From Kiritimatiellia bacterium (lineage in GTDB: Bacteria > Verrucomicrobiota > Kiritimatiellia > RFP12 > DVOR01), in NCBI GenBank assembly GCA_031552845.1, contig JAVBMC010000046.1:863-64862 (forward strand): a stretch of 64,000 nt of DNA, read 5' to 3'. A program made the position numbers and the translations under genes. The notes below the pieces were generated by a model that saw only the letters and a list, made by a program, of their open reading frames with translations, made no database searches and had not been told where the DNA came from. The first letter of the stretch is position 1. Every line of letters starts with the position of its first letter. Shown piece by piece: positions 7,101 through 42,908 of this stretch.

Positions 7101-7513
7101 GACGCAATACGTACGAGGGCGGTTCGATCATCAACAGCGGCACGGTGATTGTCTCAAACAATGGTTGTCTGGGCACGGGCGATGTGACGTTGACACACAC
7201 CAATTCAACTTTGAAGCTGAGTACCAGTGCCGAGAGCAACAATGCTGACTTCAATGGCATTTCTGATACTGCAACTCTAAGCATGATAGCCGGCAGCAAG
7301 ATTGATTTCTCCGGCATTGCAGGCGAAGATAAGAAACTGGTTGCTGAGAACGTCGGCAAGTTCTATCTTGATGGTAAGTTGATGTTCCGCGGCACGTATG
7401 GTGCGACAGGGAGCGGCGCACGTTATATCAATGATGATTTGTTTGTTGGTGCGGCGGGGGTTCTGCAGGTAACTGATGGTCCTGCTCCGGAAACAATCTT
7501 GTTTGTGCAATAA
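4184..7513 (+). CDS. Large secreted protein: DUF2341-like N-terminal domain, LamG/concanavalin-like domain and beta-helix/autotransporter-associated repeat region
   Basis: Signal peptide MKRVIVLAWVCAWSMLGFAEA. DUF2341-like block FPALVEFPVGFDYSGFMSANGDDLRFADVAGNEL..SLVWVRVPEL. LamG-like block LDEIRISNVARSAEWM. The C-terminal half is Gly/Thr/Asn-rich beta-strand repeats. Strong RBS GAAGGAG. The last ~50 aa are paralogous to the C-terminus of 8916..10613. Confidence 0.8.
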   Translation: MKRVIVLAWVCAWSMLGFAEALNVSGFTRKMNITFSGCANESVPLTNFPALVEFPVGFDYSGFMSANGDDLRFADVAGNELSYEIDTWDTSGRSLVWVRVPELVKDTVITVYWGKPLPAPVYEDDANVWSSGYLAVYHFSAGREMKDSSRYGNDLTTKVGVTQGAGGLLGAAPQFATAPTGAKGHYYSAPHSDSLGAASKELTLEGWTFDTNATSQNDWHRTMVTKRKDANTAVEYGFGLFKLGSTTASANLKWNHNSGSTRTGFAEGSAVNQWVHIASTFNAEAAEPRASLYVNGALLKTGNNAATTIPQTTMSPLYIGVLDPAAAGCWVGQLDEIRISNVARSAEWMAATAQTAKSPAAFAVNSTVEIVVTEEPVAEIMLIDVLPEGVSLNGVLGADGGAATSLKLCYGRINGGETLAEWEGVEDLGVQPIGVFSTMIEQSELRYDKQYYCRLYAENANSVAVWSPVKTFVTWGVPVLSDMFAYGTQTAIETGITLTDLGAAPSVTVKLYWGTASDDLELIQSWPDLTAAQELTFSPPDVVQDVAYYCQFTVEGLLPGDDEVTVVASEVLEASVLQGKHGVWTSALDGNWIDVANWQDGIIATGATYTATISADLTANRVITLGGGGWTVGHLAASNTSATVVNRSWTLAAPTQEFITYDAGGQPSIVDVGSNTVLISGIFTAKNDIIKRGPGIFRLVSRNNGIVARFLNTIWVEEGTFGINEPFCLEGMTVALGGADESVTVNSTENSLTGTLGQEANTTGLRNGGKIKVLAGGSGKIEFRYYSSPNDVLYWPPIELGKTVHVHTESANTFSLGGRISGAGGFYKTGAGKFFLYNNQNSFSGPITVSQGSLLVWIYGSAIPAGKRIVLGDESTGNSAVYFQVSGDTSVGSDRTFVFTDTGSTGGAGFAKCWGHTGDSAIQGAVQIDRNITIANATDTSRHTYAFAGVISGVGRVAYTSDVAKAATITLSGRNTYEGGSIINSGTVIVSNNGCLGTGDVTLTHTNSTLKLSTSAESNNADFNGISDTATLSMIAGSKIDFSGIAGEDKKLVAENVGKFYLDGKLMFRGTYGATGSGARYINDDLFVGAAGVLQVTDGPAPETILFVQ

Positions 7514-8902: not shown

Positions 8903-8915
8903 AGGAGTAGTGAGT

Positions 8916-10613
8916 ATGAAAGCAAGAATATGGTTGGAAGTAGTGGTGTGCGGGCTCATCGCGGCAAGCATTGGCTTTGCGGCAGATGTTGAGGAGCGGA
9001 ACGGCACGTGGATTGCCACGGGGAATGGCAATTGGATGGATGGAGGCAATTGGATGGATGGGTTGGTTGCGACCGGGGCGACTTATACGGCTGCGTTGTT
9101 GGCGCCGATTACAGCGGAGCGTACGATTACGCTTGGCGGAGCGGGGTATGTGATCGGACATTTGGCCGTCACGAATACCAGCACGGCTTCAGCGCGCTGG
9201 GTTTTGTCGAGCAACGGCGGTAAGGAGTTCATGTTTTATGACAATGGTGAGGAGGCGGCAGAGATCGAGATTGGTTCTAATTCAACGCTGCGGACGGGGT
9301 TCTTTACGGCGGCGGGAAATGTTGTCAAGAGCGGCGTGGGTCAGTTGCAGCTGGCTAATGCTAATACCAATGCGCTGGCACAATTTAATAACACGCTGTT
9401 TGTACAGGAGGGGTGGCTGCAATTGGATAATGGTTCGGCAGTTGCACGGATGTCTCAGGTTGTGTTGGGAGGGGGCGACCGTGATGTCACGATTTCATGT
9501 GGTAATTTCGGCGGCAGCGATTCGGCCTCCGATGGCGTGCTGGGGTCGTCATTCCGTGTGCCGGCGGAAGGCTCCGGGCAGGTTACGTTGTTTTGGAATA
9601 CCGCGAATAATATCAACTATCGACAGAGTTGGACGGTTGATAAGAAGCTGGTCTTGGATGTCCGTACTATGGGCGTGTTGTTTCGTAACAACGTCTCAGG
9701 GAGCGGGATGCTTTATAAAACAGGCGCGGGGAGTGTCCGTTTGATGAACAGTAGTCCTTTCAGCGGGGCGGTAGTCGTTGCGCAGGGCAGCTTCTTATTT
9801 GAGAATGGATTCACGTTTTTGAACGCAGCAGAACAGCGCCTGACTGTTGGCGATGAATCCAGCAGTGCGGCGAGTGCGTCTATCGGAGTTGGAAAGGGTG
9901 CGACCCTTGCGGCGGGCGCGTTCATTCATTTTACAGACTGGGTCGGGAATAACGCGCAGATTACGACGTATAATTCCGGCAACAACGATACGATGTCAAC
10001 GATTGCTTCGTCCATACAGATTGACCGTAATGTTTCTGTTTGCAACAACCAAATCAATCCCGGGTCGAGTCAGCCCAATAAGGTTGGCATTTTATTGTCA
10101 GGCATTATCAGCGGTACGGGCGGCTTAGTGTTTAACAACGGAGCCGCGCACATCACCAAGAACTTGCAGCTGAATGCGCAAAACACTTACAGCGGAGGCA
10201 CGGTTATTTCGAATTGCATCCTGCGCGTGCGCGACAATGACGGCAACGCAAATCTGTCGGCAGGTGGCAAACTGGGTACGGGGGATGTGACGATTGGAGA
10301 AAACGGTATTTTGCGGTTGTATGTCCCTAGCGTTGCCGTGCGTGAGATGAATGCGATTGATGATGATGCGTCGCTGATCATTGAGGAGGGGGGGTGCCTT
10401 GATGCAATGACGTGGGATAATTATAGTTTGACCGGTGGCTCGCCGGTTGAGAAGGTGAAGAATCTGAAGTTGGACGGAGTGTGGCAATATCGCGGCACTT
10501 ACGGCGGAACCGGCAGTGGTGCGCAAAAGGAGCTGCCTGATTATTTTGGAGCGAAGGTTGTGGTTCGCGTCACAGAGGGTTTTCAAGGACCTTCGGTGTT
10601 GGTGCTGCAGTAG
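8916..10613 (+). CDS. Secreted beta-helix / autotransporter-associated beta-strand repeat protein (paralog of the C-terminal half of 4184..7513)
   Basis: ATG at 8916 with RBS GAAGGAG 8 nt upstream; the ORF-track start at 8910 is a GTG. Signal peptide. Shared blocks with the 1109-aa protein: ATGATYTA, ITLGG.G..GHLA..NTS, and the C-terminal RGTYG.TGSGA...Q-stop. Confidence 0.75.
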   Translation: MKARIWLEVVVCGLIAASIGFAADVEERNGTWIATGNGNWMDGGNWMDGLVATGATYTAALLAPITAERTITLGGAGYVIGHLAVTNTSTASARWVLSSNGGKEFMFYDNGEEAAEIEIGSNSTLRTGFFTAAGNVVKSGVGQLQLANANTNALAQFNNTLFVQEGWLQLDNGSAVARMSQVVLGGGDRDVTISCGNFGGSDSASDGVLGSSFRVPAEGSGQVTLFWNTANNINYRQSWTVDKKLVLDVRTMGVLFRNNVSGSGMLYKTGAGSVRLMNSSPFSGAVVVAQGSFLFENGFTFLNAAEQRLTVGDESSSAASASIGVGKGATLAAGAFIHFTDWVGNNAQITTYNSGNNDTMSTIASSIQIDRNVSVCNNQINPGSSQPNKVGILLSGIISGTGGLVFNNGAAHITKNLQLNAQNTYSGGTVISNCILRVRDNDGNANLSAGGKLGTGDVTIGENGILRLYVPSVAVREMNAIDDDASLIIEEGGCLDAMTWDNYSLTGGSPVEKVKNLKLDGVWQYRGTYGGTGSGAQKELPDYFGAKVVVRVTEGFQGPSVLVLQ

Positions 10614-16615: not shown

Positions 16616-16897
16616 GCATCCCCGTTGACCCCATTGAGTGACTCGTCACTGATTCGGATCTTGAGGCTCGGAGTTCCAAGCGAATCTCCGCCCCCCGACA
16701 TACGAGAGCTTAAGCTCCAAGGAGCCATCAACTATAAAGACTGCCCGTTTGGCCGGCGTGCAGTCCAGATGCCAGGGGGATATCCACCAATCGCACGAGT
16801 GTGCTGTATGGTTTATTCGGAATCGCTTTGGCGTCGGGTTGACAGACGCCGCCGACTGCCAGCATCAACTATAGGCGGCAAGAAAGAACAAGACATC

Positions 16898-17638
16898 ATG
16901 TCAACAACAACAAACGAGCCCACCAGCTCGATTCAGGTACAAATCGTCAAGCCCGTCTCCGGCGAGCTTGTTAAGGACGGACTGCAGACGGTGAAAGCCA
17001 TCTCCCGCAGCACCGTCTCCAACGCCCAGCTCCTCGACTTCATGGTCGGCGACGGCGGCGGCATCAGCAAACCTCAAGCCAAGGCTTTTTACGAAGCCTA
17101 TGCAGACACCGTCAGCCGGTTGCTCCTCGCGGGACACAACATCCCCGTGGGCGACCTCGGTTACCTGCACGTCACGGCCAAAGGCGTGTTTGATGCGGAA
17201 GGTAAACCCGTGGAAGGTAAAGAGCTGATCTTCAAGATCAAGTTCCTGCCCAAGAAGGTCGTCAAAAACCTTCTGGCGAACCTGCCCTATGAAACCGTCG
17301 AAGCTCACGACCGCCAGCCCCGTCTGAATACGGTGACCGACAGCATTACGCTGAACGTCAACTCCGTCGTCACACGCGGGATGTCGGCCAAGCTCAACGG
17401 CAAGAACCTCAAATTCCACCCCCTCGTGGCTGACGAAGGCCTCTTCTTCGTTCCCGTCGAGGGTGGAGCTGCGGTCAAGGTCACCCAATTCCTCGACAAC
17501 CGCGACGTACGTCTCACGTTCAACGTGCCGGGTGAACTCACGGAAGGCACCAACTACCGCCTCGAAGTGCGCAAACGCTTCAGCGGGTGCAAGGCCTTAC
17601 GTATCGGAACCCTTGAGAACACGCTCAGCGTGAACTAA
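16898..17638 (+). CDS. HU-like DNA-binding protein (Bacteroidetes-type HU_2 N-terminus) with DUF4469-like Ig-fold C-terminal domain, copy 1
   Basis: 246 aa starting MSTTTNEP. Overall architecture and the C-terminal block HPLVADEGLFFVPVEGG match the DUF4469-type family. The ORF-track upstream extension (16625) runs through a leader that is conserved at the nucleotide level but not in reading frame. Confidence 0.55.
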   Translation: MSTTTNEPTSSIQVQIVKPVSGELVKDGLQTVKAISRSTVSNAQLLDFMVGDGGGISKPQAKAFYEAYADTVSRLLLAGHNIPVGDLGYLHVTAKGVFDAEGKPVEGKELIFKIKFLPKKVVKNLLANLPYETVEAHDRQPRLNTVTDSITLNVNSVVTRGMSAKLNGKNLKFHPLVADEGLFFVPVEGGAAVKVTQFLDNRDVRLTFNVPGELTEGTNYRLEVRKRFSGCKALRIGTLENTLSVN

Positions 17639-17865: not shown

Positions 17866-18074
17866 ACGTCGCGGGACGCCAACATGAGACATCAGGTAAT
17901 GAGTGAGAAGTAATAGGTAATAAGTGTGAGAGGTATAGTGAAAATACTGAAAGAAGATGGAATAAAAGTTCATGTAGAGAAAATTGTCCTAAGACGGCAC
18001 AGATCCAAACAGATAATGGGAAAAGCAGTCAGTAAAGGTGATAGATAATACGTGGGGGAGACTAAACGCGGTAC

Positions 18075-18153
18075 GGCGGTTTCGGCGAAACCTACCCTAC
18101 CTTTGAGAGTAGGGCTGACGCGGTTGTTGGGTAGGGCGATGTTCGCCGAGCGC
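18075..18153. repeat. Palindrome-plus-hairpin repeat element (GGCGGTTTCGGCGAAAC ... CCCTACC-TTTGAGA-GTAGGG ... GTTCGCCGAGCGC)
   Basis: 13-bp perfect palindrome GTTTCGGCGAAAC at 18079..18091, followed by hairpin CCCTACCTTTGAGAGTAGGG. Related copies at 16393..16408 (reverse complement), 41841..41856 and 43207..43248. Confidence 0.7.
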
Positions 18154-18382
18154 GCCGTGTGGGGTAATGGTGTGTGGGTAAAGTTCACACGGAGATACGG
18201 AAGCGTGGAGAGAGCTGTAGAGAGTAGATTTGATGCGCACACACTCTCCATCTGCGTTCATCTGCGAAATCAGCGGATAAAGTTATCCACAGACGACACA
18301 GGTTTGCACAGAAAATTAACGGTGGCTTCGATGTACACGCTATTTATTTTCAATTCTCACTCTCTTTTCCTTTTTTTAGACT

Positions 18383-18410
18383 TGATTGAGAGTCAAAACA
18401 GGCGTATAAT
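18383..18410 (+). promoter_or_regulatory. Sigma70-type promoter TTGATT-N16-TATAAT
   Basis: TTGATT 18383..18388 and TATAAT 18405..18410, about 90 nt upstream of the 18503 start. Confidence 0.5.
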
Positions 18411-18502
18411 GCGACTGTACGCTGGTTAAATAATTCTGCTTGTACGGAGCAGCCACCCAATTTATCCGGCATAGGTCGCTAATGCCTTTTAAAGGAGGCC
18501 CC

Positions 18503-19429
18503 ATGATTAGACGAAGTCTAGGTCGTTTTGTGCCGATATTTTATTTATTATGCGTATTTGGATTACCGGTCTTTCCAGATCAGGCCATCGTTGACAAATC
18601 GCTGCTGGCGGATGATTCGTTGTTGATCCGCTCGCCATCAGACTTACAGCTGTTGTTGTATCAATGGCAGCAGCTGTCGGTGCCGTCGGTAGAACCGTCG
18701 GTTAAAGATGCAGGCATGTTTATATTTTCGCCGGATGGCATGGAATCGGAGTCGTTCTTTAACGCGCTATTGCCTGATCCGAGTCATGCGAATGCTTCGG
18801 TTGTTTTCGTAGAGGATGATGATTTGTCGGGGTATACGTTTTTTTATGATTTGCTGGGTGATCCGATTTATGCGCTTCCATTGCTAGATACCGTAACCGA
18901 TGGCGACGATGGCATCACTTTACGGGTATCGCTGTGGACATTCTTCAATCGAAACCGTAGTGAAACAGAGTTTGAAACTTTGCTGAGTAATTTACAACGT
19001 AGCCGCGGTATCTCAGGGAACAGCCGTAAGCTGGAACGGTTGGCACGCCTGATGTTGGAGCGCAATGCAATTCTGAGCCGTCCGGCGGCGGCCTTTGCGG
19101 AGACCAATGATTTCACGGAACGCCAGCGAGCGCTCGAGCCGAATGATGAACCGAGTTTATCAAAGGTCGTTTATGTGGATGCCAAGCAAGGGAATGATTC
19201 GCTCTCCGGCCGGGCGGCATCTGTAAAGAGCGGGCATGAAGGCCCTAAGCGAAGCGTGCGCAGCGGTGTTGCCGAGTTGGTTGAGGAAGATGTACTAGTC
19301 ATTCGTGAAGGACATTATGCCGAAGATCTGAACCTGCGTGATAAAGATGTGCGGGTGCGGATTGAAGGGACGGTTGTGTTAAGAGATGTCATTGATAGCG
19401 ATACAGCGAAAGAGCAGGTGACCCCATGA
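18503..19429 (+). CDS. Secreted hypothetical protein ending in the first turns of a right-handed beta-helix (DUF1565-like) motif
   Basis: ATG at 18503 with strong RBS AAAGGAGG. Signal peptide MIRRSLGRFVPIFYLLCVFGLPVFP. C-terminal VVYVDAKQGNDSLSGRA...GVAELVEEDVLVIREGHYAEDL resembles the start of pectate-lyase-like beta-helix proteins, but the ORF stops after ~60 aa of that domain. Confidence 0.6.
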   Translation: MIRRSLGRFVPIFYLLCVFGLPVFPDQAIVDKSLLADDSLLIRSPSDLQLLLYQWQQLSVPSVEPSVKDAGMFIFSPDGMESESFFNALLPDPSHANASVVFVEDDDLSGYTFFYDLLGDPIYALPLLDTVTDGDDGITLRVSLWTFFNRNRSETEFETLLSNLQRSRGISGNSRKLERLARLMLERNAILSRPAAAFAETNDFTERQRALEPNDEPSLSKVVYVDAKQGNDSLSGRAASVKSGHEGPKRSVRSGVAELVEEDVLVIREGHYAEDLNLRDKDVRVRIEGTVVLRDVIDSDTAKEQVTP

Positions 19430-20412
19430 GTATGCGATGGAATAAATGCATGTTACCCGGCGTGCTGGGATGCTGCTTGAGATTGAGTGTGCATGGAGAC
19501 ACGTTGGAGACTGACGCGGTGAAGGCAGATGAAGTTATTTTGCAGACGCTGTCATTTCGGCCGACGGTAACAACCGATGCATTCGCGCATTATCGTTTTG
19601 TAACGTCTGCTACTGTGACCAACGATACAACAGCCAATAAAAATATTTTGATCAGATCTAGTGCTGTTTGGTCCGCTACCGGTTATGCGGGCGGTGTTGG
19701 CGGTGGACTATCATTTGATGGAACGGCAGACTATGTGTATACCCCCACTGCCAGAGCTGTAACGCCAATGCCGACGTGGAACGCCTATTCCGTCAGCATG
19801 TGGTTTTTTCACAATGGCGGCGGTAAATTTGATGCGACACATTATCACCCTTTGTTGGACAAGAGCACCACAAAAATCGGCACCTTTCTAGCCTTAGACC
19901 CCACCGGTATTTCCGGTCCGGTTGGCTCGTTGACATTTCAAACTTTTGGAGTAACGCCTATTTGTTCCATGCGGGATGCTACTAAAAACTATATGGATAA
20001 CACTTGGCATCACGTGGTATTGATTAAAAATGATTCTAACGGGCAGTTATGGGTTGACGGTGAGCTGAAGGATCAAACTTCGGATTTGGCCTGTGTGACG
20101 AATACTTCCGGTCTTTTCTTCGGGAGACGCTCCACATCTTTTGAGAGTGGTTCAACTGCTCCCAGCTGGAGTGGGCTGATGGATGAGATTCAAATATTCA
20201 AACGTGCGTTGGAGCCTTCAGAGGTGACGAATCTCTTTGTGCATAATGGACCGTTTCCACTGAAGACGGCGCTTGAGGTAACCACTAATCTAACGGTGAA
20301 TGGTGATGTCCACGTAGGAGGCCGTTTGTCTTTCACAGGTGAGAAGATGCAGTTGCGGGCTTCAGGTGATGTGGAGTGCGGGATTTTCAGCAACGGTGTG
20401 ACTGTTCCCTAA
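19426..20412 (+). CDS. Secreted LamG/concanavalin A-like lectin domain protein 1
   Basis: Start overlaps the upstream stop (ATGA). LamG_3-like motifs: LSFDGTADYVYTP, WHHVVLIKNDSNGQLWVDGEL, SGLMDEIQIFKRALEPSEVTNLF. C-terminal module L.V.G.V..G...........GDVECGIFSN. Confidence 0.75.
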   Translation: MSMRWNKCMLPGVLGCCLRLSVHGDTLETDAVKADEVILQTLSFRPTVTTDAFAHYRFVTSATVTNDTTANKNILIRSSAVWSATGYAGGVGGGLSFDGTADYVYTPTARAVTPMPTWNAYSVSMWFFHNGGGKFDATHYHPLLDKSTTKIGTFLALDPTGISGPVGSLTFQTFGVTPICSMRDATKNYMDNTWHHVVLIKNDSNGQLWVDGELKDQTSDLACVTNTSGLFFGRRSTSFESGSTAPSWSGLMDEIQIFKRALEPSEVTNLFVHNGPFPLKTALEVTTNLTVNGDVHVGGRLSFTGEKMQLRASGDVECGIFSNGVTVP

Positions 20413-20423
20413 TGGAGTCTATC

Positions 20424-21479
20424 ATGAAGCGATTAATTTTAAGTGTTTGGATTTGCTGTTTAGGGCTTGGCCTTACAGCAGCTGTGCTGGTGACAGATAT
20501 TGTAAAAACGGATGAGGTGCTGACAAAGGCTTTAGTATTGCAGCCTTTATTTCCGACGGATGCGTATGCCAACTATCAGTTTTTGACTTCGGCATCTTCG
20601 GCCTCCGACTCGAGCACCAATGGATTCACAGTAGTGAAAACCGGCGTCACGTGGAGAAACGCGACCTATGCCTATGCAAATGGCGGGTGCATGTATTTCG
20701 ATGGCAAAGGGGCTTTTCTGACGGTGACCAATAAATTGGAGTTGGCGGCATTTCCGGCATGGGAACAGTACTCCGTCAGCATCTGGTTCAAGCATGATGG
20801 CAAGGGTACCATTGGCCAGCATCATATGTTATTCGATAAAAGCGCCAGCGATACTGTTTGCATGTTAAGCTTGGATAACGGCACTTGTTTTCCCGGCGCG
20901 CCCGACTACGCACCTTTGGTGTTTTGGCTATACGATGAAGGCATAGATCAAATGATTTTCCTTTCGACGGATGCTATCTGGAATTTTGGCGTCTATCCGG
21001 AAGGCACGGATGAAGCGGACTATGAACCGTTCGACTACAGAGATAACCAATGGCATCATGTGGTTGTCGTGCGCAATGGTCCCGTCGGGGAGCTTTGGGT
21101 GGATGGTCGGTTGAACGATTCAACCGCGAACGGTTGGTGGGACGATATGTTTAACGTAACGAATGCCTCTAATTTGTATTTCGGGCGATGCTCGCCTTGG
21201 TATGAAGCTGCCTCATCTTCTACGGTTGTCAGCTGGAGCGGGATGATGGACGAGATCCAAATCTTTGACCGTGCGTTGAGTGCCCGTGATATCGTCAATC
21301 TATTTCAACGCGGTACGCCGATTGAACCGCTGACAGCAGTCGCTGTCCCTGCAAGTTTGGCTATTCAAGGTGAACTGACGGTGACGGGTCAAGTCTCCTG
21401 TGTCGGCACGACTTATCTGCGTCCGATGGGGGACCTCTCTTGCGGCGATTTTACGAACAGCCCTGCACTTCAGCCTTGA
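20424..21479 (+). CDS. Secreted LamG/concanavalin A-like lectin domain protein 2 (paralog)
   Basis: ATG at 20424 after GGAG. Signal peptide MKRLILSVWICCLGLGLTAAV. LamG-like motifs: MYFDGKGAFLTV, WHHVVVVRNGPVGELWVDGRLND, SGMMDEIQIFDRALSARDIVNLF. C-terminal GDLSCGDFTN. Confidence 0.75.
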   Translation: MKRLILSVWICCLGLGLTAAVLVTDIVKTDEVLTKALVLQPLFPTDAYANYQFLTSASSASDSSTNGFTVVKTGVTWRNATYAYANGGCMYFDGKGAFLTVTNKLELAAFPAWEQYSVSIWFKHDGKGTIGQHHMLFDKSASDTVCMLSLDNGTCFPGAPDYAPLVFWLYDEGIDQMIFLSTDAIWNFGVYPEGTDEADYEPFDYRDNQWHHVVVVRNGPVGELWVDGRLNDSTANGWWDDMFNVTNASNLYFGRCSPWYEAASSSTVVSWSGMMDEIQIFDRALSARDIVNLFQRGTPIEPLTAVAVPASLAIQGELTVTGQVSCVGTTYLRPMGDLSCGDFTNSPALQP

Positions 21480-21509
21480 TCTGATGACTCTTAATATTGG
21501 TGTGATTTT

Positions 21510-24500
21510 ATGAAATATTCGGTTCTATTACGCTTCAATTTTTTTGCTTGCGCCAGTTTGGTTATGGCCGCTTGGGTACACAGCGCGGTGACTACGGTTA
21601 CTACCCTCGATTCGACCGAAGTACAAACTGAGGCCATTCACCCGCTCCTCGCGACGCAAAAGATCGTACGGGTACAAGGCGGCCTAGATATTGCACACGA
21701 CTTGACCGTCCAAGGCAACACCCATTTGGCAACAGGTATGCTTCTGGTTCCGCCGCTGGGCGATGTGTCTATGGGGAGTTTTACAAACGATCTAACTGAG
21801 GCTCCGGCTTGGTGGTCCGACTATGGCGTAATCAACCCCGAGAGCCAGCCGAATGACTATGCGGCGGTTATACAAGGGCAAGTCAAGTGGATGGCTCTTT
21901 GTGCGGCTGAAATGCTGAATGACGTGTTGCGTTATGTTGGCGGTGCCGGTGAAGCGGTTAATGATTTGGTTGACTCATTGACGTTGGGCAATAACACATT
22001 GCCAACCAGCTTAGGACAGCTTAAAAATACGGCATTGCCGTTCTGGGAGCGGATGATTCAGGTTGGATTAGTGGAGGAACTGCCATGGCAGGGCGAGAGC
22101 AGCGATTACAGCATTGCTAGTATTGGACAAGCTAAATATTTGTTCAATTTGCCCCTAGATGCCACGGACTCGGATGGCGATGGCTTGCCTGATTTTCTTG
22201 AACGGCTTTTAGGCACTGATCCTCTTGTCGCCGATAGCGATAATGACGGATTGTCCGATGGTTGGGAGGTTGAGCACGGCTTTGATCCGCTGGATGCAAC
22301 GGATGCTCTACGCGATAGTGACAATGACGGGATGCCCGATGCGTGGGAAATACAGCATAATCTAAACCTAAATGACGCAAGTGATGCCCTTCTTGATCCT
22401 GATTGTGACGGGCTGACTAACTTGGAAGAATACCGAAACGGCACCCACCCGTTCAACTCCGATACAGACGGAGACGGCTTTACGGATGGTTGGGAAGTGA
22501 TGGTTGGCCTCAAGCCTCTTGACCCGATGGATGGGGCAAGCATGATGGCCAATCTTCCGCCACAGGCGAATATTCCGATGGCGTGCTTTACCAACCATCT
22601 AGACACAAACTATCCGGTCGATCTTTCTCCTAGTCCGCTCAACCCTTGGTATGTTGCGTGTGATTATACAAAACTTTGGTGGATGAATGATGGTTTGCTT
22701 GCTACGGTGATTGGCAATAATGATTTTGCTGCCGTCACACAAGGGCAAGCGAAACTGCTATTCGCGAAAGCCGCTGAGCGCGTTGACCATGTATTTCGTT
22801 TTGCTGGAGGAGCAGGCGATGAAATTCGTGGGTTTATTGAATCCTTGCCTGCGGCTAATGATGACCTGCCGGTTACGGTCGGCATACTTCAAACAGGGAT
22901 CAATTGTTTTCAGAACCGATTCAAACAAATTTCGGCGATGCCATCTTCTCTGAATTCGCCATGGCTGAATGACATCCAGCTGATCGATTATTTTTTAGAG
23001 GAGACTTGGAGCCATTATCCGGCTAATGTCGGACAACTCAAATCATTGGTTCTATTTTCGGGACTCTTAGAAGATACTGATGATGACGGATTTCCAGACG
23101 TACTTGAGCTTTGCTGGTACGCAACTAGGCCTGAAAATCCTGATTGTGATGATGATGGCTTGTTGGATGGCGAAGAAATATTTACTTATGGTACAGAGCC
23201 ATGGGCATGGGATACAGACGGTGATTATTTTTCAGACGGATGGGAGGTTGAACATGGCTTTGATCCATGGGGGCCAAACGATGCACAATCAATCGACAGT
23301 GATAATGATGGAATACCGGATGCGTATGAACTCTATTGGTTTGGTGATTTAGAGACGGTTAGCGGAAATTATTGTACCGAGTCAGGGTTTATGTTGAGCG
23401 CCTTACTTGCACATAAAGCAGGAGCCTCGCATCACATGTACGAGTACGGGCCAACTCCGTGGGACAATCCGCTCTATGATTTCTATGAATCTGACGAGAA
23501 TGTGAGAGGCATTCAACTTGTTAATTACTTTGGTCTATGGCCATTGCAATACATGACAGATGTGGTTTATGAGCGAACTTTTTCCATTGACCCAAGGCCG
23601 GGACAACACGTTTTTATTGCGGACTCTGCAAGGAATGGGAGCGTTTTCGGATTGTGTGCCTTGCTGTTGGAATGGGAAGATTCAAACGGTAAGCGAGGTG
23701 AGATATGGGGCGGATGGTACGACGGCTTCATTCGACTTCCCGTCTCGCTTTACAATTTGACCTCTATTACGATTCGCTTGAGAGCAACCGGTGGATTTGG
23801 TTCACAGTGTACTTGTACTCCAATCGATCTTTTATTCATCACCGATGAAGCTTGGGCGATAGATAGTGATGGCGATGGATTGACAGATGTGTTGGAAGAG
23901 GAGTATGGAACCGACCCGCTCGTGTATGACACTGACGGGGATGGGTTGTCAGATGGATTGGAAATTACCTTCGGAACCAATCCGCTCCTAGCAGATAGTG
24001 ACGGGGATGGACAGTTAGATGGTTGGGAGGTCGCTCACTTGACCGATCCGCTGAATGCGAAGGGCGGTGTGCTACTCGACACGGATGGCGATGGCATGCC
24101 CGATCTCTGGGAACAGTTTTACGGATTGGATCCATTTGATCCCACGGATGCGGATTTAGACCCGGATGGAGATGGCTTGACGAATTGGCAGGAACTCCAA
24201 GCCGGAACCTATCCCTTCGTTTGGGATACGGATGGTGATGGCATGCCGGATGGCTGGGAAGTCGAACATGGGTTGAATCCCTTGAATCCTGATGACGCGT
24301 TACTGGATGCGGACAATGACGGGCTTACGAATCTTGAGGAGTTTCAGAAAGGGAGCAATCCGAATCGGGTCGATAGCGATGGTGACGGATTTGCTGACAA
24401 ATGGGAACTGGACAATGGCTTTAATCCCGCTGCTCCGGGCGATGTGACGGTTGACAGCAATAATAATGGTTTCGATGATGATGAAGAAAACCGTTGGGGC

Positions 24501-24668
24501 GCAGACCGCCCCGCGCCAACAGATGATCCCTCTAGGACAATCCGTTATTATTACGACGACGATGATCGCTTGATAGGCAGCTATTTCGGCGCTTCCCAAA
24601 GCGCGACCACGACAATTTATTCCCCTGCCGGTAACCCAATCATGAGACACACAAGAGGTTCAAAATGA
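21510..24668 (+). CDS. Large secreted protein with multiple thrombospondin type-3-like Ca-binding repeat blocks (D.D.DG..D..E) and an internally duplicated ~120-aa module
   Basis: Signal peptide. More than 25 D.D.DG..D motifs (for example TDSDGDGLPDFLE, DSDNDGLSDGWEVEHGFDPLD, DPDCDGLTNLEEY). Repeated module DYAAVIQGQVK...GGAGE...GQLK. An N-terminal GDVSMGSFTN motif is shared with the LamG proteins. The 3' end overlaps the RHS gene start. Confidence 0.75.
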   Translation: MKYSVLLRFNFFACASLVMAAWVHSAVTTVTTLDSTEVQTEAIHPLLATQKIVRVQGGLDIAHDLTVQGNTHLATGMLLVPPLGDVSMGSFTNDLTEAPAWWSDYGVINPESQPNDYAAVIQGQVKWMALCAAEMLNDVLRYVGGAGEAVNDLVDSLTLGNNTLPTSLGQLKNTALPFWERMIQVGLVEELPWQGESSDYSIASIGQAKYLFNLPLDATDSDGDGLPDFLERLLGTDPLVADSDNDGLSDGWEVEHGFDPLDATDALRDSDNDGMPDAWEIQHNLNLNDASDALLDPDCDGLTNLEEYRNGTHPFNSDTDGDGFTDGWEVMVGLKPLDPMDGASMMANLPPQANIPMACFTNHLDTNYPVDLSPSPLNPWYVACDYTKLWWMNDGLLATVIGNNDFAAVTQGQAKLLFAKAAERVDHVFRFAGGAGDEIRGFIESLPAANDDLPVTVGILQTGINCFQNRFKQISAMPSSLNSPWLNDIQLIDYFLEETWSHYPANVGQLKSLVLFSGLLEDTDDDGFPDVLELCWYATRPENPDCDDDGLLDGEEIFTYGTEPWAWDTDGDYFSDGWEVEHGFDPWGPNDAQSIDSDNDGIPDAYELYWFGDLETVSGNYCTESGFMLSALLAHKAGASHHMYEYGPTPWDNPLYDFYESDENVRGIQLVNYFGLWPLQYMTDVVYERTFSIDPRPGQHVFIADSARNGSVFGLCALLLEWEDSNGKRGEIWGGWYDGFIRLPVSLYNLTSITIRLRATGGFGSQCTCTPIDLLFITDEAWAIDSDGDGLTDVLEEEYGTDPLVYDTDGDGLSDGLEITFGTNPLLADSDGDGQLDGWEVAHLTDPLNAKGGVLLDTDGDGMPDLWEQFYGLDPFDPTDADLDPDGDGLTNWQELQAGTYPFVWDTDGDGMPDGWEVEHGLNPLNPDDALLDADNDGLTNLEEFQKGSNPNRVDSDGDGFADKWELDNGFNPAAPGDVTVDSNNNGFDDDEENRWGADRPAPTDDPSRTIRYYYDDDDRLIGSYFGASQSATTTIYSPAGNPIMRHTRGSK

Positions 24669-27600
24669 AGTTTTTTTGGAAACTATTAATCGTTTGCTGT
24701 TACTTCGCTGTCACACTACAAGCTCAAGAAAGTGAGTCGCCGTCCGGTTGGTTAATTAGTGTGGCAGATAGCGAAATACCTCCTCTTAGTGATTGGCCTC
24801 AGGTATCGGTGCCTTCAAAACCTCCGCTATCCGTACGGAGCAAGGCAACGGCTGCTGCAAATCGTTTGATGGCTACGTCCCAACAGGCACCTGAGCGCGT
24901 TTTGCCGACTGTGCTTGATCTTGGCTTGCAGCAAACTTTGCCTGCATCGGATATGGCCTTAATTAAGGAATTGGCGCGTGGACTGGATTATGATTGGGAG
25001 AAGTGTTATTACTTTGTCCGTAATCATATTAATTATGTGCCGTGTGGTGGCATTATGCGAGGCCCGGAACGAACCCTTTTGGATAGAGAGGGTAATGATG
25101 CTGATCAAGCATTCTTATTACTGGCATTGTTGAGAGCTTCCGGTTATACGGCAACAATTCTACACGTGCCATTGACTCAGGTAAGCGGTCAACCGACCCA
25201 AGGATTCTGCGTGCCGATAGCCAATCAAAACGGGGAATTGGTTTATAATGCTGCCGATTGGTTGGGAGGAAAGAGCTTCAACTCATTGCAGGAGGCTGGT
25301 GACGGAGTGGCACAGTGTCTGCAGATCGCTAAACGATCGTTAAGAGGAATTACGGATACCGCCACTGGAATCAGAATGATTGTTACTGATCACTTTTGGG
25401 TTTCGTTGACTCTGGATGGCGAAACAAAATGGCTTGATCCATCCTTTAAACCCGTTCGTCGAACATCTGTCCGCTCAATTTTGGACGATATGGGATATCA
25501 GCGTAACTCGCTTCTACAATCAGCCAATGGCGTTGTGAATCCCAATTCCGTCAGTAACCTGACGTTCAATGGTATAAAAACTCAATTGGGTTTATGCGTC
25601 GATAATCTAAGAACGCTCTGGGCCGACACGAATATTAATGCTTCGGCCTATGTTGGTAAGGTTGAAATCGTCGAGCAAACTGACTCCGAGTACTTTCATG
25701 GTTCTGTTTTCGGCACCCCGTCCGATTTTCTGGCAAAATCCCAGACAGATAAAAATGGTTTTAGAGTACCGATGAAATTGAATGTCTCAATATCTGGGCC
25801 ATCGGCTAATTTATATTTGGACGAGGTCGGCCCCCGTCGTCTCTGGGTGAGTTATGTAAGTGGAAGCGGTTCTACAGGGTATAAGACGGCTCTCAAGTTA
25901 GACACCATCACATTGGCGGAGGCATCAGCCGCATCTACCGCAATCGACGAGACAATGACCCTTGAAGTTAATTATTTTTCGACCAAGCACTCTGCCAATT
26001 ATTCTTTTAAGCGTGCTTTGACGAGTGCTTATGCGATTGTTGTCGGATTTGGTGGAGATCATCGGGATGGTATGCGTGTGTGGACCGCCGAGCAATTGGC
26101 CAATCTACGCGTGACCGCGCCTGCGAGTGATATACAGTTGGTTGCGGCCTCTCTGCAAGTGGCAGGGCACCAATGGCTTGCGCAAACGGCAATGATGCGC
26201 TCTTTTCGAAATAAAGTTTTTAACTATAATCGGCAACAGTTTTACAATATAGGGGTTGCCGGACAAGCTAGTTCTCCTTATGTTGATGTGAGAAACTCTT
26301 ATAGTTACACACCGGATGATGTTCAAGATTTGGACGGTGGCATGCTGTTTTCGAGCGCATTGGAACATGCGGTGCTTGATCAACTCAATGGAACGAACCG
26401 TCCGGCCGTTTCAACCATCAAAGTGTTGGAGCTTGCAAATACTGCAGGAGTTCCGGTATATTTTGCGACGAGTGCAAACTATGCTACAATCAGGGGAAGT
26501 CTGCTGAATTATACCACAGATCAGCTTGCTTCCTTTGCGACAGCAGTTGGAGCTGGACGTAAACTATTAGTGCCAAGAGATGCACGCATCCGTTTGAAGG
26601 ATTGGACGGGGTATGGGTATATTGAGCAAGGCCCAGCATCGATCGGTAACCAAACTTATACTACCAGTATGGCAATTGGCGGTGGGTTTGCTGGCGGCTA
26701 TGCTGCTGTTGACAACTTTGTATTAGATCCTCCGCCTGCCGTACTTGATCATTCTATTTTACCGAATGCTGCAACGCCAGAAATGACCCAGGCCGATCCC
26801 GTCACCATGCCGGCAGGTGCCTACATTGATTCGAGTACAGATATTGCTGATATTGGAGCTGTTCCGGTAATATGGACGCGCCAGTATGATTCACGCAAAC
26901 GTTATGCGAATGGTCCGCTGGGACGAGGATGGATTCACAATTATGAGGCCTCTGTCACCCTCTCCAGCGACCCTGATGCGATTTTTGGCCATGCTTCTCT
27001 CGAGGCCGTCCTTCCGACGGTAGTGGCGATGGCGGCAGTGGAGGACATGCTTGCTAAGCAAAAGACTGCGTTGACATCTGGAGAGCAGGCCAAGTGCTGG
27101 ATGGTTGCGGCATTGACGGTGCAATGGTGGGTTAGCCGATTTGTCGATGCAACGGCTGTCGTTAATTTGGGCAATAAAACATTGTCTTTTCAAGCTAGGA
27201 CAACCGGCAAGCCGCAGGGCGAAGAAGCGGTTGTTTACGTGCCCTATCCCGGAGTGACAGCAACGCTGGTGAAAAAACCTCTGGAAAAGAGGCTTCACTT
27301 AATAGAACGTCTTGGGGCAACTTTTTGCTTTGACGAAACCAAGAGCAACAGATTGGCCGAAATTGTTCACTCCGCGGGGAGTCATACAGAGTTGAAGTAT
27401 GATACTTCTGGCAAACTTTCTATTATCACCAATAGTTCCTCTCGTACGGCGTTATCAGTAAAATGGAATACTGCTAATCGGATTGTCGGCGTGACGAATT
27501 GTTTTAAAGCGGGTGTTGGATATACGTATGATAGCAAGGGATGTTTGACACAGGCAAAAGACGCGCTCGGGCAGTCTTGGATATCGACTTACGATCCCGT

Positions 27601-42197: not shown

Positions 42198-42908
42198 ATG
42201 GCTATTCGATATCACTTAGGGCCCGCGCTGCGGGCGGATCGGGCGGCGGCGGGCGAGATGATTGTGCATTCATCCACCGCACTGCGCATTCAGCAAGAGG
42301 AACTCGCCGACGAACTCGTCCGCCAAGGGACAACCGTGCGCCGCGCCGATGTGCTGGCCGTACTCGATAATCTCGGACTCGCGGTGGGGCACCTGTGCGC
42401 CCGCGGCATTGCGGTTTCAATTCCGAATCTCGGCACCATGACCCCGCGCGCTCGGGGCGTGGTCGATCGCAACGGCGCGTGGGTCCGCCCGCTGGAGGGG
42501 TACTTGACGCTACAAGCCGACCGCGGGCTGGAGGCTGTTTTCAATCAACACGCAAAGTTCCAAGAAGTCCCCCGCAAACCGGTACGCGCCATCATTCGGC
42601 GGATTTTCAACGTAACTGCCGCTCCGGGAGATGTCCGGCTCGTGCCGGGTGATGTGTTCGAAGTACAAGGCCGGCATTTACGGTTCAATGCCGCCGCGGC
42701 CGATGAAGGGATTTTTCTGAAACGCGCCGAGGGTTCAACTACGGAGGAGGTCAAGGTGATCGAGGTTTGGCCCCAGACCCCCTCGCGGGTACTCTTCCGC
42801 GTGCCGACCACAATCATGCCCGGGGACTGGTTATTAGAGGTGCGGGTCCGCCAAAAGGACTGTTCACGCGTAACCGTGTCCGAACCGCAAATTATTTTGA
42901 CCTGTTGA
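42198..42908 (+). CDS. HU-like DNA-binding protein with DUF4469-like C-terminal domain, copy 2
   Basis: MAIRYHL N-terminus typical of Bacteroidetes-type HU_2 family proteins. C-terminal NAAAADEGIFLKRAEG block parallels copy 1. RBS-like AGGAAATTAAAACC precedes the ATG. Confidence 0.55.
   Translation: MAIRYHLGPALRADRAAAGEMIVHSSTALRIQQEELADELVRQGTTVRRADVLAVLDNLGLAVGHLCARGIAVSIPNLGTMTPRARGVVDRNGAWVRPLEGYLTLQADRGLEAVFNQHAKFQEVPRKPVRAIIRRIFNVTAAPGDVRLVPGDVFEVQGRHLRFNAAAADEGIFLKRAEGSTTEEVKVIEVWPQTPSRVLFRVPTTIMPGDWLLEVRVRQKDCSRVTVSEPQIILTC

What the first reader, a model, noticed from the sequence alone, without database searches (positions are those of the whole stretch)
20290..21790. Shared ~40-aa module (L.V.G....G....GD.SCG.FTN) at the C-termini of both LamG proteins and the N-terminus of the TSP3-repeat protein
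LTVNGDVHVGGRLSFTGEKMQLRASGDVECGIFSNGVTVP-stop, LTVTGQVSCVGTTYLRPMGDLSCGDFTNSPALQP-stop, and LTVQGNTHLATGMLLVPPLGDVSMGSFTNDL (just after the signal peptide of 21510..24668) are clearly related. A short module shared among three adjacent secreted proteins suggests an interaction or oligomerisation tag, or a common sorting signal.
Basis: seen in the sequence. Interest (0 to 1): 0.6.

Follow-up and report, generated by a model that had tools for sequence, protein, structure and literature searches.

The report
Unannotated junction tag linking surface proteins
The short sequence shared by three neighbouring secreted proteins is real: it belongs to an unannotated family of about 45-residue end-tags that almost always sit directly before one particular partner domain, in the same protein or in the protein encoded next, so it most likely joins accessory lectin or fibre proteins to large surface proteins.

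Summary
A profile built from 86 non-window sequences hits only the three reported places in all six frames of the window (E 1e-15, 3e-13, 2.5e-11; next best 0.45).

- **Origin of the copies.** The two LamG proteins are full-length paralogues. The copy in the TSP3 protein is an independent, N-terminal copy.
- **Family.** The module is a beta-rich stretch ending in Y..P.GD.S[MC]G.[FY]TN.P. It has no Pfam, NCBIfam, PDB or literature match. It recurs in Kiritimatiellia, Lentisphaerae and Verrucomicrobia genomes and in metagenomes, at the extreme C-terminus of varied secreted proteins: LamG, collagen-like, YadA-head-like and fibre-repeat proteins.
- **Partner domain.** In 24 of 29 evaluable loci found by the motif alone, the next gene encodes a signal peptide followed at once by a conserved, unannotated "PxWW + 3x NDYAxxNxGQxK" domain (W-domain). 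In the window type, the module is fused directly in front of that domain.
- **Third component.** A further conserved element, the U-domain, is encoded upstream (window 18503-19429).

Best reading (inferred, not shown): the module is an assembly and docking element, probably working as several copies and possibly three, that attaches accessory proteins to the W-domain of large TSP3/RHS-type proteins. A generic sorting signal is less likely.

The parts
20263..20409 (+). Module copy 1: C-terminal 49 residues of LamG-A (residues 280-328), ending 5 residues after GDVECGIFSN
   Evidence: Independent module HMM, E 2.5e-11, covering nt 20266-20397. Coordinates.
21330..21476 (+). Module copy 2: C-terminal 49 residues of LamG-B (residues 303-351), ending 6 residues after GDLSCGDFTN
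   Evidence: Independent module HMM, E 1.2e-15. Family alignment A1 shows this tail is the best-conserved part: 62% mean pairwise identity against 52% for the LamG body.
21657..21794 (+). Module copy 3: residues 50-95 of the TSP3 protein, followed after 5 residues by PAWW
   Evidence: Independent module HMM, E 2.9e-13. BLASTP against the LamG tails, E 1e-5 and 5e-4.
22554..22595 (+). Decayed fourth module core (PPQANIPMACFTN, TSP3 residues 349-362) in front of the second W-domain
   Evidence: Weak HMM stretch with a negative score. BLASTP aligns it with the PPSGDLPMGIYTN core of P0084. Suggestive only.
21801..22160 (+). W-domain copy 1 (TSP3 residues 98-217): PAWW followed by three [N/S]DYAxxxxGQxK helix starts. 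This is the partner domain that follows the module.
   Evidence: HMM from 19 non-window W-domains, E 2e-38. AlphaFold2 gives a helical fold with pLDDT 70-90. No Pfam, NCBIfam or PDB match.
22674..23060 (+). W-domain copy 2 (TSP3 residues 389-517)
   Evidence: Same HMM, E 5.8e-18.
19163..19384 (+). U-domain: conserved C-terminal ~75 residues (VYVDAKQGNDSLSGR...GPKRSV...GHYAEDLNL...VRVRIEGTVVL) of the upstream protein
   Evidence: HMM from 17 loci, E 4.7e-26, the only hit in the window. A profile against PDB gives only marginal hits (E 0.007-0.08), and the seven best are all to right-handed beta-helix proteins and tail fibres/tailspikes.
18503..19429 (+). Gene U (308 residues by the public gene call; the open frame starts at 18440). 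Its stop overlaps the LamG-A start.
   Evidence: Homologous genes occupy the same position in L001, L005, L020 and at least 10 metagenome loci.
19426..20412 (+). LamG-A gene (328 residues): signal peptide, N-element (about residues 26-47), Laminin_G_3 domain, module
   Evidence: Pfam PF13385, E 1.2e-15. N-element HMM, E 0.012.
20424..21479 (+). LamG-B gene (351 residues): same layout as LamG-A and a paralogue of it
   Evidence: Pfam PF13385, E 1.7e-13. BLASTP against LamG-A, E 6e-59. Identical to database protein P0001.
21510..24668 (+). TSP3 protein gene (1052 residues): signal peptide, module, W-domain, TSP3 repeats, decayed core, second W-domain, more TSP3 repeats, and one weak YD-repeat match at the end
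   Evidence: Pfam TSP3_bac, E 4e-72. NCBIfam YD_repeat, E 0.09. Also.
24665..30754 (+). RHS-repeat protein gene (2029 residues). Its start overlaps the TSP3 stop. It is the last large gene of the operon.
   Evidence: Pfam RHS_repeat, E 7e-60, and DUF6531. C-terminal DPLGL motifs and a Gly-rich tip are seen in the sequence.

Best explanation
The module is an assembly and docking element. It consists of one or two beta-solenoid-like rungs (L.V.G.L.V.G.V.F..G) followed by a highly conserved cap (Y..P.GD.S[M/C]G.[F/Y]TN.P).

Accessory secreted proteins (X) carry it at their extreme C-terminus. In the window these are the two LamG lectin-like proteins. Elsewhere they are collagen-like, YadA-head-like or fibre-repeat proteins. 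The large protein encoded next starts, right after its signal peptide, with a helical W-domain: PxWW plus three NDYAxxNxGQxK motifs. In the window type, that large protein carries its own module directly in front of the W-domain.

The proposal is that several modules, probably three, come together after Sec export and sit on or next to the W-domain. This would fix the accessory proteins onto the large TSP3/RHS-type surface protein. In the window the junction would contain LamG-A, LamG-B and the TSP3 protein.

Shown:
- the homology of the copies;
- the terminal position of the module;
- the gene adjacency;
- the fused forms;
- the trimer-type carriers.

Inferred:
- physical contact;
- stoichiometry;
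- the cell-surface location.
For: 1. **The copies are homologous and constrained.** HMM E-values are 1e-15 to 2.5e-11 in the window. The module is the best-conserved part of the LamG family. The DNA is diverged.

2. **The family exists beyond the window.** The exhaustive profile search found 366 cluster representatives at E<=1e-3. Among the proteins held at that point (essentially the best 150 plus earlier LamG hits), 86 non-window ones carry the core within 9 residues of their C-terminus.

3. **The partner is specific.**
- In LamG-type loci from Kiritimatiellia, Lentisphaerae and Verrucomicrobia genomes and from unclassified metagenome contigs, the next gene starts with module + PAWW + W-domain.
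- In more distant loci (L016, L018, L020, L022) the next gene starts with a signal peptide and then PxWW and the W-domain, with no module of its own. Where genes were called, intergenic gaps are 10-54 nt, counting both locus types.
- Among 37 metagenome loci picked by the motif alone, 34 have it 0-6 residues from a stop codon. In 24 of 29 with enough downstream sequence a W-domain gene follows on the same strand. The W pattern matched nowhere else in those loci, in any frame.

4. **Fusions support a joint function.**
- The window-type large proteins carry module and W-domain in cis.
- P0084 has two tandem cores before its W-domain and no X gene upstream.
- P0040 joins module, W-domain, TSP3 repeats and U-domain in one chain.

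5. **More than one module per complex.** Loci with a cis module still keep a separate LamG-module gene. The window has two of them.

6. **Some carriers are trimers.** In L057X, collagen triple-helix repeats (E 4e-29) run straight into the core. L030X has YadA_head repeats above the Pfam cut-off.

7. **Consistent with needing a partner.** AlphaFold2 leaves the module unfolded in single chains (pLDDT below 50 and below 35), while the LamG core and the W-domain fold.
Against: - No interaction was computed or measured.
- The low AlphaFold2 confidence may only reflect shallow alignments (12 and 4 sequences).
- Five evaluable metagenome loci (L023, L029, L032, L056, L059) have no W-domain gene downstream. 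L021 has it two genes upstream.
- The association was tested only from the module side.
- LamG proteins are not obviously fibrous, so a trimer is not demonstrated for them.
- The apparent sharing of the N-terminal element between LamG proteins and the window's TSP3 protein is not significant.
- Taxonomy is known only for a handful of loci.
Confidence: 0.5

Rival explanations
1. The module is a C-terminal sorting, secretion or anchoring signal. A dedicated machinery recognises it and takes diverse secreted proteins across or onto the outer membrane, like T9SS C-terminal domains or PEP-CTERM tags.
For: The tag lies 0-6 residues from the C-terminus in 34 of 37 loci and in 86 diverse non-window proteins with unrelated bodies. 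All carriers seem to have Sec signal peptides (by eye). Some loci lie near type II secretion or pilin-type genes.
Against: - The same module works near the N-terminus, after the signal peptide and in front of the W-domain, in window-type large proteins.
- There is no hydrophobic helix or basic tail, and no match to any sorting-signal model in NCBIfam or Pfam.
- Copies are confined to one operon in the 64 kb window. Elsewhere they sit next to one specific partner gene. No candidate sorting enzyme is conserved beside them, unless the U protein is one.
Confidence: 0.15
2. The module is only the folding nucleus or end cap of a beta-helical or trimeric fibre, comparable to the T4 fibritin foldon or the C-terminal domains of phage tail fibres. 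It makes no specific contact with the W-domain, and the gene adjacency reflects co-expression alone.
For: The first two thirds of the profile match many repetitive beta-solenoid-like proteins (hits with 5-29 stretches on profile positions 4-30). Carriers include collagen-like and YadA-head-like proteins. The module ends the chain.
Against: This does not explain three things. The large proteins carry the module fused directly before the W-domain. P0084 has two cores before its W-domain and no X gene. The partner's first residues after the signal peptide (YPxWW) are as conserved as the tag. No copy was found in 2.9 million viral contigs.
Confidence: 0.17
3. The module marks a processing or ligation site. 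Either the large proteins are cut between ...FTN and PAWW, or the free C-terminus of X is joined covalently to the free N-terminus of the mature W protein. In the second case the fused genes would resemble the ligated product.
For: Both ends are terminal and highly conserved...FTNxP-COOH, and xxYPxWW directly after the predicted signal-peptide cut. The cis forms have the same order with only 5-16 linker residues. The U protein of unknown function is always present.
Against: No protease, transpeptidase or intein-like domain was found in any cassette protein. The best matches of the U-domain profile are all to right-handed beta-helix folds, not enzyme active sites. This is pure inference from termini.
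Confidence: 0.05
4. The shared stretch has no function of its own. It is a relic of duplication or recombination among neighbouring genes.
For: The LamG-A and LamG-B tails are explained by whole-gene duplication.
Against: The module is the most conserved segment of the family and is kept across phylum-level distances and in unrelated architectures. Its position is fixed, and its DNA is diverged while the protein is conserved.
Confidence: 0.03

Closest known systems
Cohesin-dockerin docking (cellulosomes)
   Same: A short terminal module on many otherwise unrelated secreted proteins pairs with a dedicated domain in a large scaffold protein. Cargo and scaffold genes are often clustered.
   Different: There is no sequence match (Pfam) and no duplicated Ca-binding loop-helix motif. 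The partner here is a helical PxWW/GQxK domain at the scaffold's N-terminus. Several tags seem to act together. Binding is untested.
Head-neck-stalk junction of trimeric autotransporter adhesins (YadA family)
   Same: A beta-rich trimeric head ends and a helix begins at a D-A-V-N-x-x-Q-L type motif. The W-domain motif NDYAAVNxGQLK resembles it. Some module carriers have YadA_head repeats.
   Different: YadA_stalk hits are far below the cut-off (12-17 bits against 28.4) and cover only about 10 residues. The W-domain has three such motifs in one chain. Head and 'neck' are on two polypeptides. There is no YadA membrane anchor.
C-terminal trimerisation or chaperone elements of phage fibres (T4 fibritin foldon, Peptidase_S74 intramolecular chaperone)
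   Same: A short element at the very end of fibrous, trimeric proteins. Carriers with GNVGIGT..P..KLHV.G repeats look like tail-fibre-type repeats (from memory).
   Different: No Pfam match, no copy in viral contigs, no sign of self-cleavage motifs, and a link to a downstream partner domain.
C-terminal sorting tags (T9SS CTD, PEP-CTERM/exosortase)
   Same: A conserved tag at the extreme C-terminus of diverse secreted proteins in one group of bacteria.
   Different: It is much shorter than a T9SS CTD and has no transmembrane or basic tail. It also occurs internally in front of the W-domain. It is tied to the neighbouring gene rather than scattered. No NCBIfam model matches.
Thrombospondins (animal matricellular proteins)
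   Same: The same building blocks occur in one assembly: a LamG-like lectin domain, an oligomerisation element and Ca-binding TSP type 3 repeats.
   Different: Here the parts are spread over separate polypeptides, and the oligomerisation element is a beta-rich tag, not a coiled coil. This is an analogy only, drawn from general knowledge.

Membership tests
Laminin_G_3 / concanavalin-A-like lectin (the carriers, not the module) | Match to PF13385 above the gathering score | tested here: met
   LamG-A scores 58.3 bits and LamG-B 51.4 bits against a cut-off of 27.6. The match ends before the module, at residue 267 of LamG-A and residue 291 of LamG-B.
Bacterial TSP3-repeat proteins (carrier of copy 3) | Match to PF18884 above the gathering score | tested here: met
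   237.9 bits over 10 stretches. The first repeat starts after residue 215, so the module and W-domain lie outside it.
T9SS C-terminal sorting domain | C-terminal beta-sandwich of about 70-100 residues matching the Pfam or NCBIfam CTD models | tested here: not met
   There is no NCBIfam hit on the tails at E<=1 and no Pfam hit on 15 module sequences at E<=10. The module is about 45 residues long.
PEP-CTERM / exosortase or other transmembrane C-terminal anchors | Signature motif followed by a hydrophobic helix and a basic cluster at the C-terminus | tested here: not met
   The sequences end ...G.FTN.P with 0-9 further residues and no hydrophobic stretch. No NCBIfam hit.
Trimeric autotransporter adhesins | YadA_stalk/neck match above cut-off | tested here: not met
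   YadA_stalk scores only 12-17 bits (cut-off 28.4) in 4 of 20 W-domains, on the VNxGQLK motif alone.
Trimeric autotransporter adhesins | C-terminal YadA membrane anchor | tested here: not met
   No anchor hit in any cassette protein scanned.
Phage tail-fibre C-terminal chaperone (Peptidase_S74) | Match to the Pfam model | tested here: not met
   No Pfam hit.
Phage tail-fibre C-terminal chaperone (Peptidase_S74) | Occurrence in phage genomes | tested here: not met
   The scan of viral contigs found no relative.
Amuc_1099 family pilus-like system protein (NCBIfam NF042425) | Whole-protein score of at least 50 bits | tested here: not met
   38.1 bits, with the best stretch at TSP3 residues 910-954 inside the TSP3-repeat region. 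The N-terminal 230 residues give no hit.
TafC tat-fimbria protein (NCBIfam NF052521) | Whole-protein score of at least 410 bits | tested here: not met
   15-23 bits, covering only the LamG fold. TafC is a haloarchaeal fimbrial subunit (PMC11821415, found).
Cohesin-dockerin | Dockerin or cohesin Pfam match | tested here: not met
   No such hits. The resemblance is functional only.

The most novel reading that the evidence does not exclude
Module and W-domain together form a previously unknown kind of junction. Three copies of the tag, from a homotrimeric fibre or from three different chains as in this window, would converge on a single-chain domain with threefold internal repeats. A trimeric lectin or fibre would thus be mounted on a monomeric giant surface or toxin protein, a three-to-one symmetry adaptor. 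The U protein might serve as assembly factor, and the two conserved free termini might even be joined covalently. On this reading the three-gene cassette (U, X-module, W) would be a modular surface-display system of PVC-group bacteria that neither domain library tested holds.
Probability: 0.2. Interest if true: 0.8.

Novelty: new variant of a known kind. Interest (0 to 1): 0.6.

Why it matters
Kiritimatiellia, Lentisphaerae and Verrucomicrobia encode many very large secreted proteins whose assembly and display are not understood.

This work yields three conserved, unannotated elements in fixed gene order: the module, the W-domain and the U-domain. Together they give a concrete, testable handle.
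- They predict which proteins form a complex: LamG-A, LamG-B and the TSP3 protein, followed by an RHS toxin.
- They would allow annotation of hundreds of hypothetical proteins in metagenomes.
- They offer a candidate small docking pair for protein engineering if the binding is confirmed.
- The RHS gene that closes the operon suggests a route by which lectin-type specificity could be attached to a polymorphic toxin.

Tried and rejected
- **Shared N-terminal element.** The idea was that the LamG proteins and the TSP3 protein also share the mature N-terminus (GTVTAEKVIADEVLTREIG type). An HMM gives E 0.012 for LamG-A, 0.77 for LamG-B and nothing for the TSP3 protein. Among related large proteins only P0040 scores clearly, at 15 bits. 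It is kept as a feature of the LamG family only.
- **TafC and Amuc_1099 hits.** They cover only the LamG fold and the TSP3 repeats, not the module.
- **Module profile against PDB.** The best hit is the pyocin spike 4s37 at E 0.11, which is not significant.
- **Foldseek of the TSP3 N-terminal model against PDB.** Nothing at E<=0.001. The SLH-domain hits at TM about 0.3 are too weak to use.
- **Third word-indexed protein search.** TSP3 residues 1-216 found nothing. The second search, with the module profile, returned only seven fragments. The exhaustive search was needed.
- **Viral contigs.** No relatives.
- **Literature.** No paper contains the motif strings. Searches on Amuc_1099 and on Kiritimatiellota/LamG gave nothing relevant.
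- **Recent gene conversion.** Rejected as the source of the similarity because the DNA is diverged.
- **Conserved cysteine chemistry.** The Cys of GDLSCG is replaced by Ser, Ala, Leu or Trp in some LamG-type tails and by Met in most other copies.

Full report
**What is in the window.** Five genes on the + strand between about 18.5 and 30.8 kb form a tight operon, with overlapping stop/start codons or gaps of 11-30 nt.
- U: 18503-19429, no Pfam match.
- LamG-A: 19426-20412.
- LamG-B: 20424-21479.
- A 1052-residue TSP3-repeat protein: 21510-24668.
- A 2029-residue RHS-repeat protein: 24665-30754.

GC content is 47-50% over this block against 51-61% in the flanks. All five products begin with hydrophobic N-termini that look like Sec signal peptides. 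This was judged by eye, because no predictor was available.

**Check of the observation.**
- The core pattern GD[LVI][SE].G.F[ST]N occurs three times in all six frames of the 64 kb, and only here.
- LamG-A and LamG-B are paralogues over their full length (35% identity, E 6e-59). Their common tail is therefore expected.
- The N-terminal region of the TSP3 protein matches the LamG tails at E 1e-5 and 5e-4 in pairwise BLASTP.
- I built an HMM from 86 module copies of other organisms, with no window sequence, and ran it over all 1443 stop-to-stop segments of the window. It hits LamG-B (E 1.2e-15), the TSP3 protein (2.9e-13) and LamG-A (2.5e-11). The next best is 0.45.
- The DNA of the three copies is poorly conserved, so this is old, protein-level conservation.
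- A decayed fourth core, PPQANIPMACFTN, lies at TSP3 residues 349-362.

**The LamG family.**
- Only 11 proteins in 5.8 billion resemble LamG-B.
- All of them end with ...AVSVTTNLAV.GGL.VTG.VSFASGV.YSRPLGDLSCG.YTN.P, followed by the stop or at most five further residues.
- This tail is the best-conserved segment: 62% mean pairwise identity and 71% for the last 16 residues, against 52% for the LamG body.
- The family also has a conserved mature N-terminus (GTVTAEKVIADEVLTREIG..PP).

**Conserved neighbourhood.**
- In related loci from Kiritimatiellia, Lentisphaerae and Verrucomicrobia genome bins and from unclassified metagenome contigs, the order is the same. A U-like gene comes first, then one LamG-module gene, then a protein of about 1,800 to 2,750 residues where complete.
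- That protein carries, about 60-110 residues from its start...F.DG..[FY]L.P.GDVPMG.FTN, then 5-16 linker residues, then PAWW.

**The module is much more widespread.**
- A 47-position profile was scored against all 1.84 billion cluster representatives. It found 366 proteins at E<=1e-3 and 32 at E<=1e-10.
- One class of hits consists of repetitive beta-solenoid-like proteins that match only profile positions 4-30 many times. The first two thirds of the module therefore look like generic beta-helix rungs.
- The other class has a single match that ends the protein. Among the proteins held at that point (essentially the best 150 plus earlier LamG hits), 86 non-window ones carry P.GD[LI]S[MC]G.[FY]TN.P within 9 residues of their C-terminus.
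- Their bodies are varied: LamG domains, LVIVD repeats, GNVGIGT..P..KLHV.G repeats, or nothing known.
- The module matches no Pfam family (E<=10), no NCBIfam family (E<=1) and no PDB sequence (best E 0.11).
- No held paper contains the motif strings.
- None of 2.9 million viral contigs encodes it.

**The key result: a specific partner.**
- In four more distant loci (L016, L018, L020, L022) the tag-bearing protein is followed after 10-31 nt by a gene with no module of its own.
- That gene's product begins with a signal peptide and then, at once, (Y)PxWW..R.V....NDYAA.N.GQ[LV]K. This is the same domain that follows the module inside the window-type large proteins. I call it the W-domain.
- The W-domain is about 125 residues long, with PxWW and three [N/D]DYAxxNxGQxK motifs (alignment A6).
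- An HMM without window sequences finds two copies in the TSP3 protein (residues 98-217, E 2e-38; residues 389-517, E 6e-18) and none elsewhere in the window.
- The W-domain has no Pfam, NCBIfam or PDB match.
- AlphaFold2 predicts it to be helical with pLDDT 70-90.
- I then scanned the metagenome collection with the motif alone, which returned 37 loci.
  - In 34 of them the motif lies 0-6 residues from a stop.
  - 29 of these have enough downstream sequence to judge. In 24 a W-domain gene follows on the same strand.
  - The W pattern matched nowhere else in those loci, in any frame.
  - The exceptions are L023, L029, L032, L056 and L059. In L021 the W-domain protein is two genes upstream.

**Fusions.**
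- The window-type large proteins are module-W fusions.
- P0084, a Kiritimatiellae protein, has two tandem cores (PLGDIRCGIFTNSP, about 15 residues, PPSGDLPMGIYTN) before its W-domain. It has no U or X gene upstream.
- P0040 combines module, W-domain, TSP3 repeat and U-domain in 381 residues, and is itself preceded by a LamG-module gene.
- The U-domain is the C-terminal ~75 residues of the U proteins. It scores E 5e-26 in the window. Its only PDB resemblances are marginal (E 0.007-0.08), and the seven best are all to right-handed beta-helix proteins and tail fibres/tailspikes.
- Three unannotated elements are therefore shuffled within one system.

**Clues to how the module works.**
- *Multiplicity.* Loci whose large protein has its own module still keep one or two separate module proteins, and P0084 has two cores in cis.
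- *Carrier folds.* Some carriers have obligate-trimer folds.
  - In L057X and L058X, collagen-like Gly-X-Y repeats run straight into the core (...GPQGPAGTVPTHIEPMGDLSMGDFTNGPTP-stop). For L057X, Pfam Collagen scores E 4e-29.
  - L030X has YadA_head repeats above the Pfam cut-off.
- *Terminal position.* In the split form, the X tail ends two to six residues after FTN. The mature W protein seems to start two to four residues before PxWW. In the fused form the two are 5-16 residues apart.
- *Structure prediction.* AlphaFold2 leaves the module unstructured in single chains (pLDDT below 50 in LamG-B and below 35 in the TSP3 N-terminus), while the neighbouring domains fold. This fits an element that needs partners. 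It could also be due to the shallow alignments.
- *The W-domain motif.* NDYAAVNxGQLK recalls the neck motif of trimeric autotransporters, but YadA_stalk scores are far below the cut-off. I treat this as a lead only.

**Interpretation.**
- The best-supported reading is that the module is an assembly and docking element. It forms the last rungs and cap of a beta-structure shared by several chains, placed against the W-domain. This attaches accessory lectin or fibre proteins to the large protein.
- For the window, this predicts a junction made of LamG-A, LamG-B and the TSP3 protein, which is three modules. The RHS toxin, encoded in the same operon, might be part of the same apparatus.
- Homology, position, adjacency and fusions are shown. 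Contact, stoichiometry and location are inferred.
- Three rivals remain open: a sorting signal (less likely for the reasons given above), a pure fibre cap without contact to the W-domain, and a processing or ligation site.

**Comparison with known systems and novelty.**
- The module works most like a docking tag (cohesin-dockerin) or a fibre-end assembly element (foldon, autotransporter head-neck junction).
- It fails every membership test that could be run (see the table).
- Neither the module, the W-domain nor the U-domain is in Pfam, NCBIfam 20.0 or the PDB sequence set, and the motif strings occur in no held paper.
- I therefore rate it a new variant of a known kind, a terminal docking or assembly module, and not a member of any described family.

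**Limits.**
- Taxonomy is known only for a few genome bins.
- The association was measured only from the module side.

Noticed in passing
window 30300-31159: The RHS protein closes its shell with DPLGL-type motifs and then carries a ~125-residue glycine-rich C-terminal tip (MVTIGVQAAVGIGGTVSLGAAW...). A 123-residue, very hydrophobic ORF follows at 30788-31159 (+). This looks like a toxin tip with its immunity protein.
   Followed up: no
window 16625-17638 and 42198-42908: Two genes encode HU-like DNA-binding domains fused to DUF4469 (HU-HIG / HU-DNA_bdg hits). Each lies upstream of a block of genes for large, apparently secreted proteins.
   Followed up: no
window 18000-32000: GC content is 47-50% here against 51-61% in the flanks. 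The U-LamG-LamG-TSP3-RHS block ends just before nusA/infB, so it may be an acquired island.
   Followed up: no
window 21801-22160 and 22674-23060: The TSP3 protein contains two copies of an unannotated ~125-residue helical domain (PxWW plus three NDYAxxNxGQxK motifs). In many metagenome loci this domain forms the very N-terminus of mature secreted proteins of about 220 to more than 2,700 residues.
   Followed up: yes
window 19163-19384: The upstream protein ends in a conserved ~75-residue domain (VYVD..G.D...GR....GPKRT...G.Y.E.L......V.I.G.V.L) that resembles the start of right-handed beta-helix proteins. It recurs upstream of module genes and is sometimes fused to W-domain proteins (P0040, L021).
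   Followed up: partly
L061 5876-10381 (Kiritimatiellae bin GCA_017544725.1): P0084 has two tandem module cores before its W-domain and YD/RHS-like repeats near its C-terminal end (the protein is annotated as partial). No U or LamG gene lies upstream. It resembles a single-chain version of the window's TSP3 and RHS proteins.
   Followed up: partly
L018 5985-6647 and 16511-16903; L003 1362-2261; L021 8833-16747: Some cassettes lie beside prepilin-type (N_methyl/T2SSG) or T2SSF genes, and one lies beside a polysaccharide-synthesis cluster. This hints at a link to the cell envelope or to secretion.
   Followed up: no
window 4184-7513 and 8910-10613: Further large proteins carry LamG, DUF2341 and PATR (autotransporter passenger) repeats. 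Neither carries the module.
   Followed up: partly
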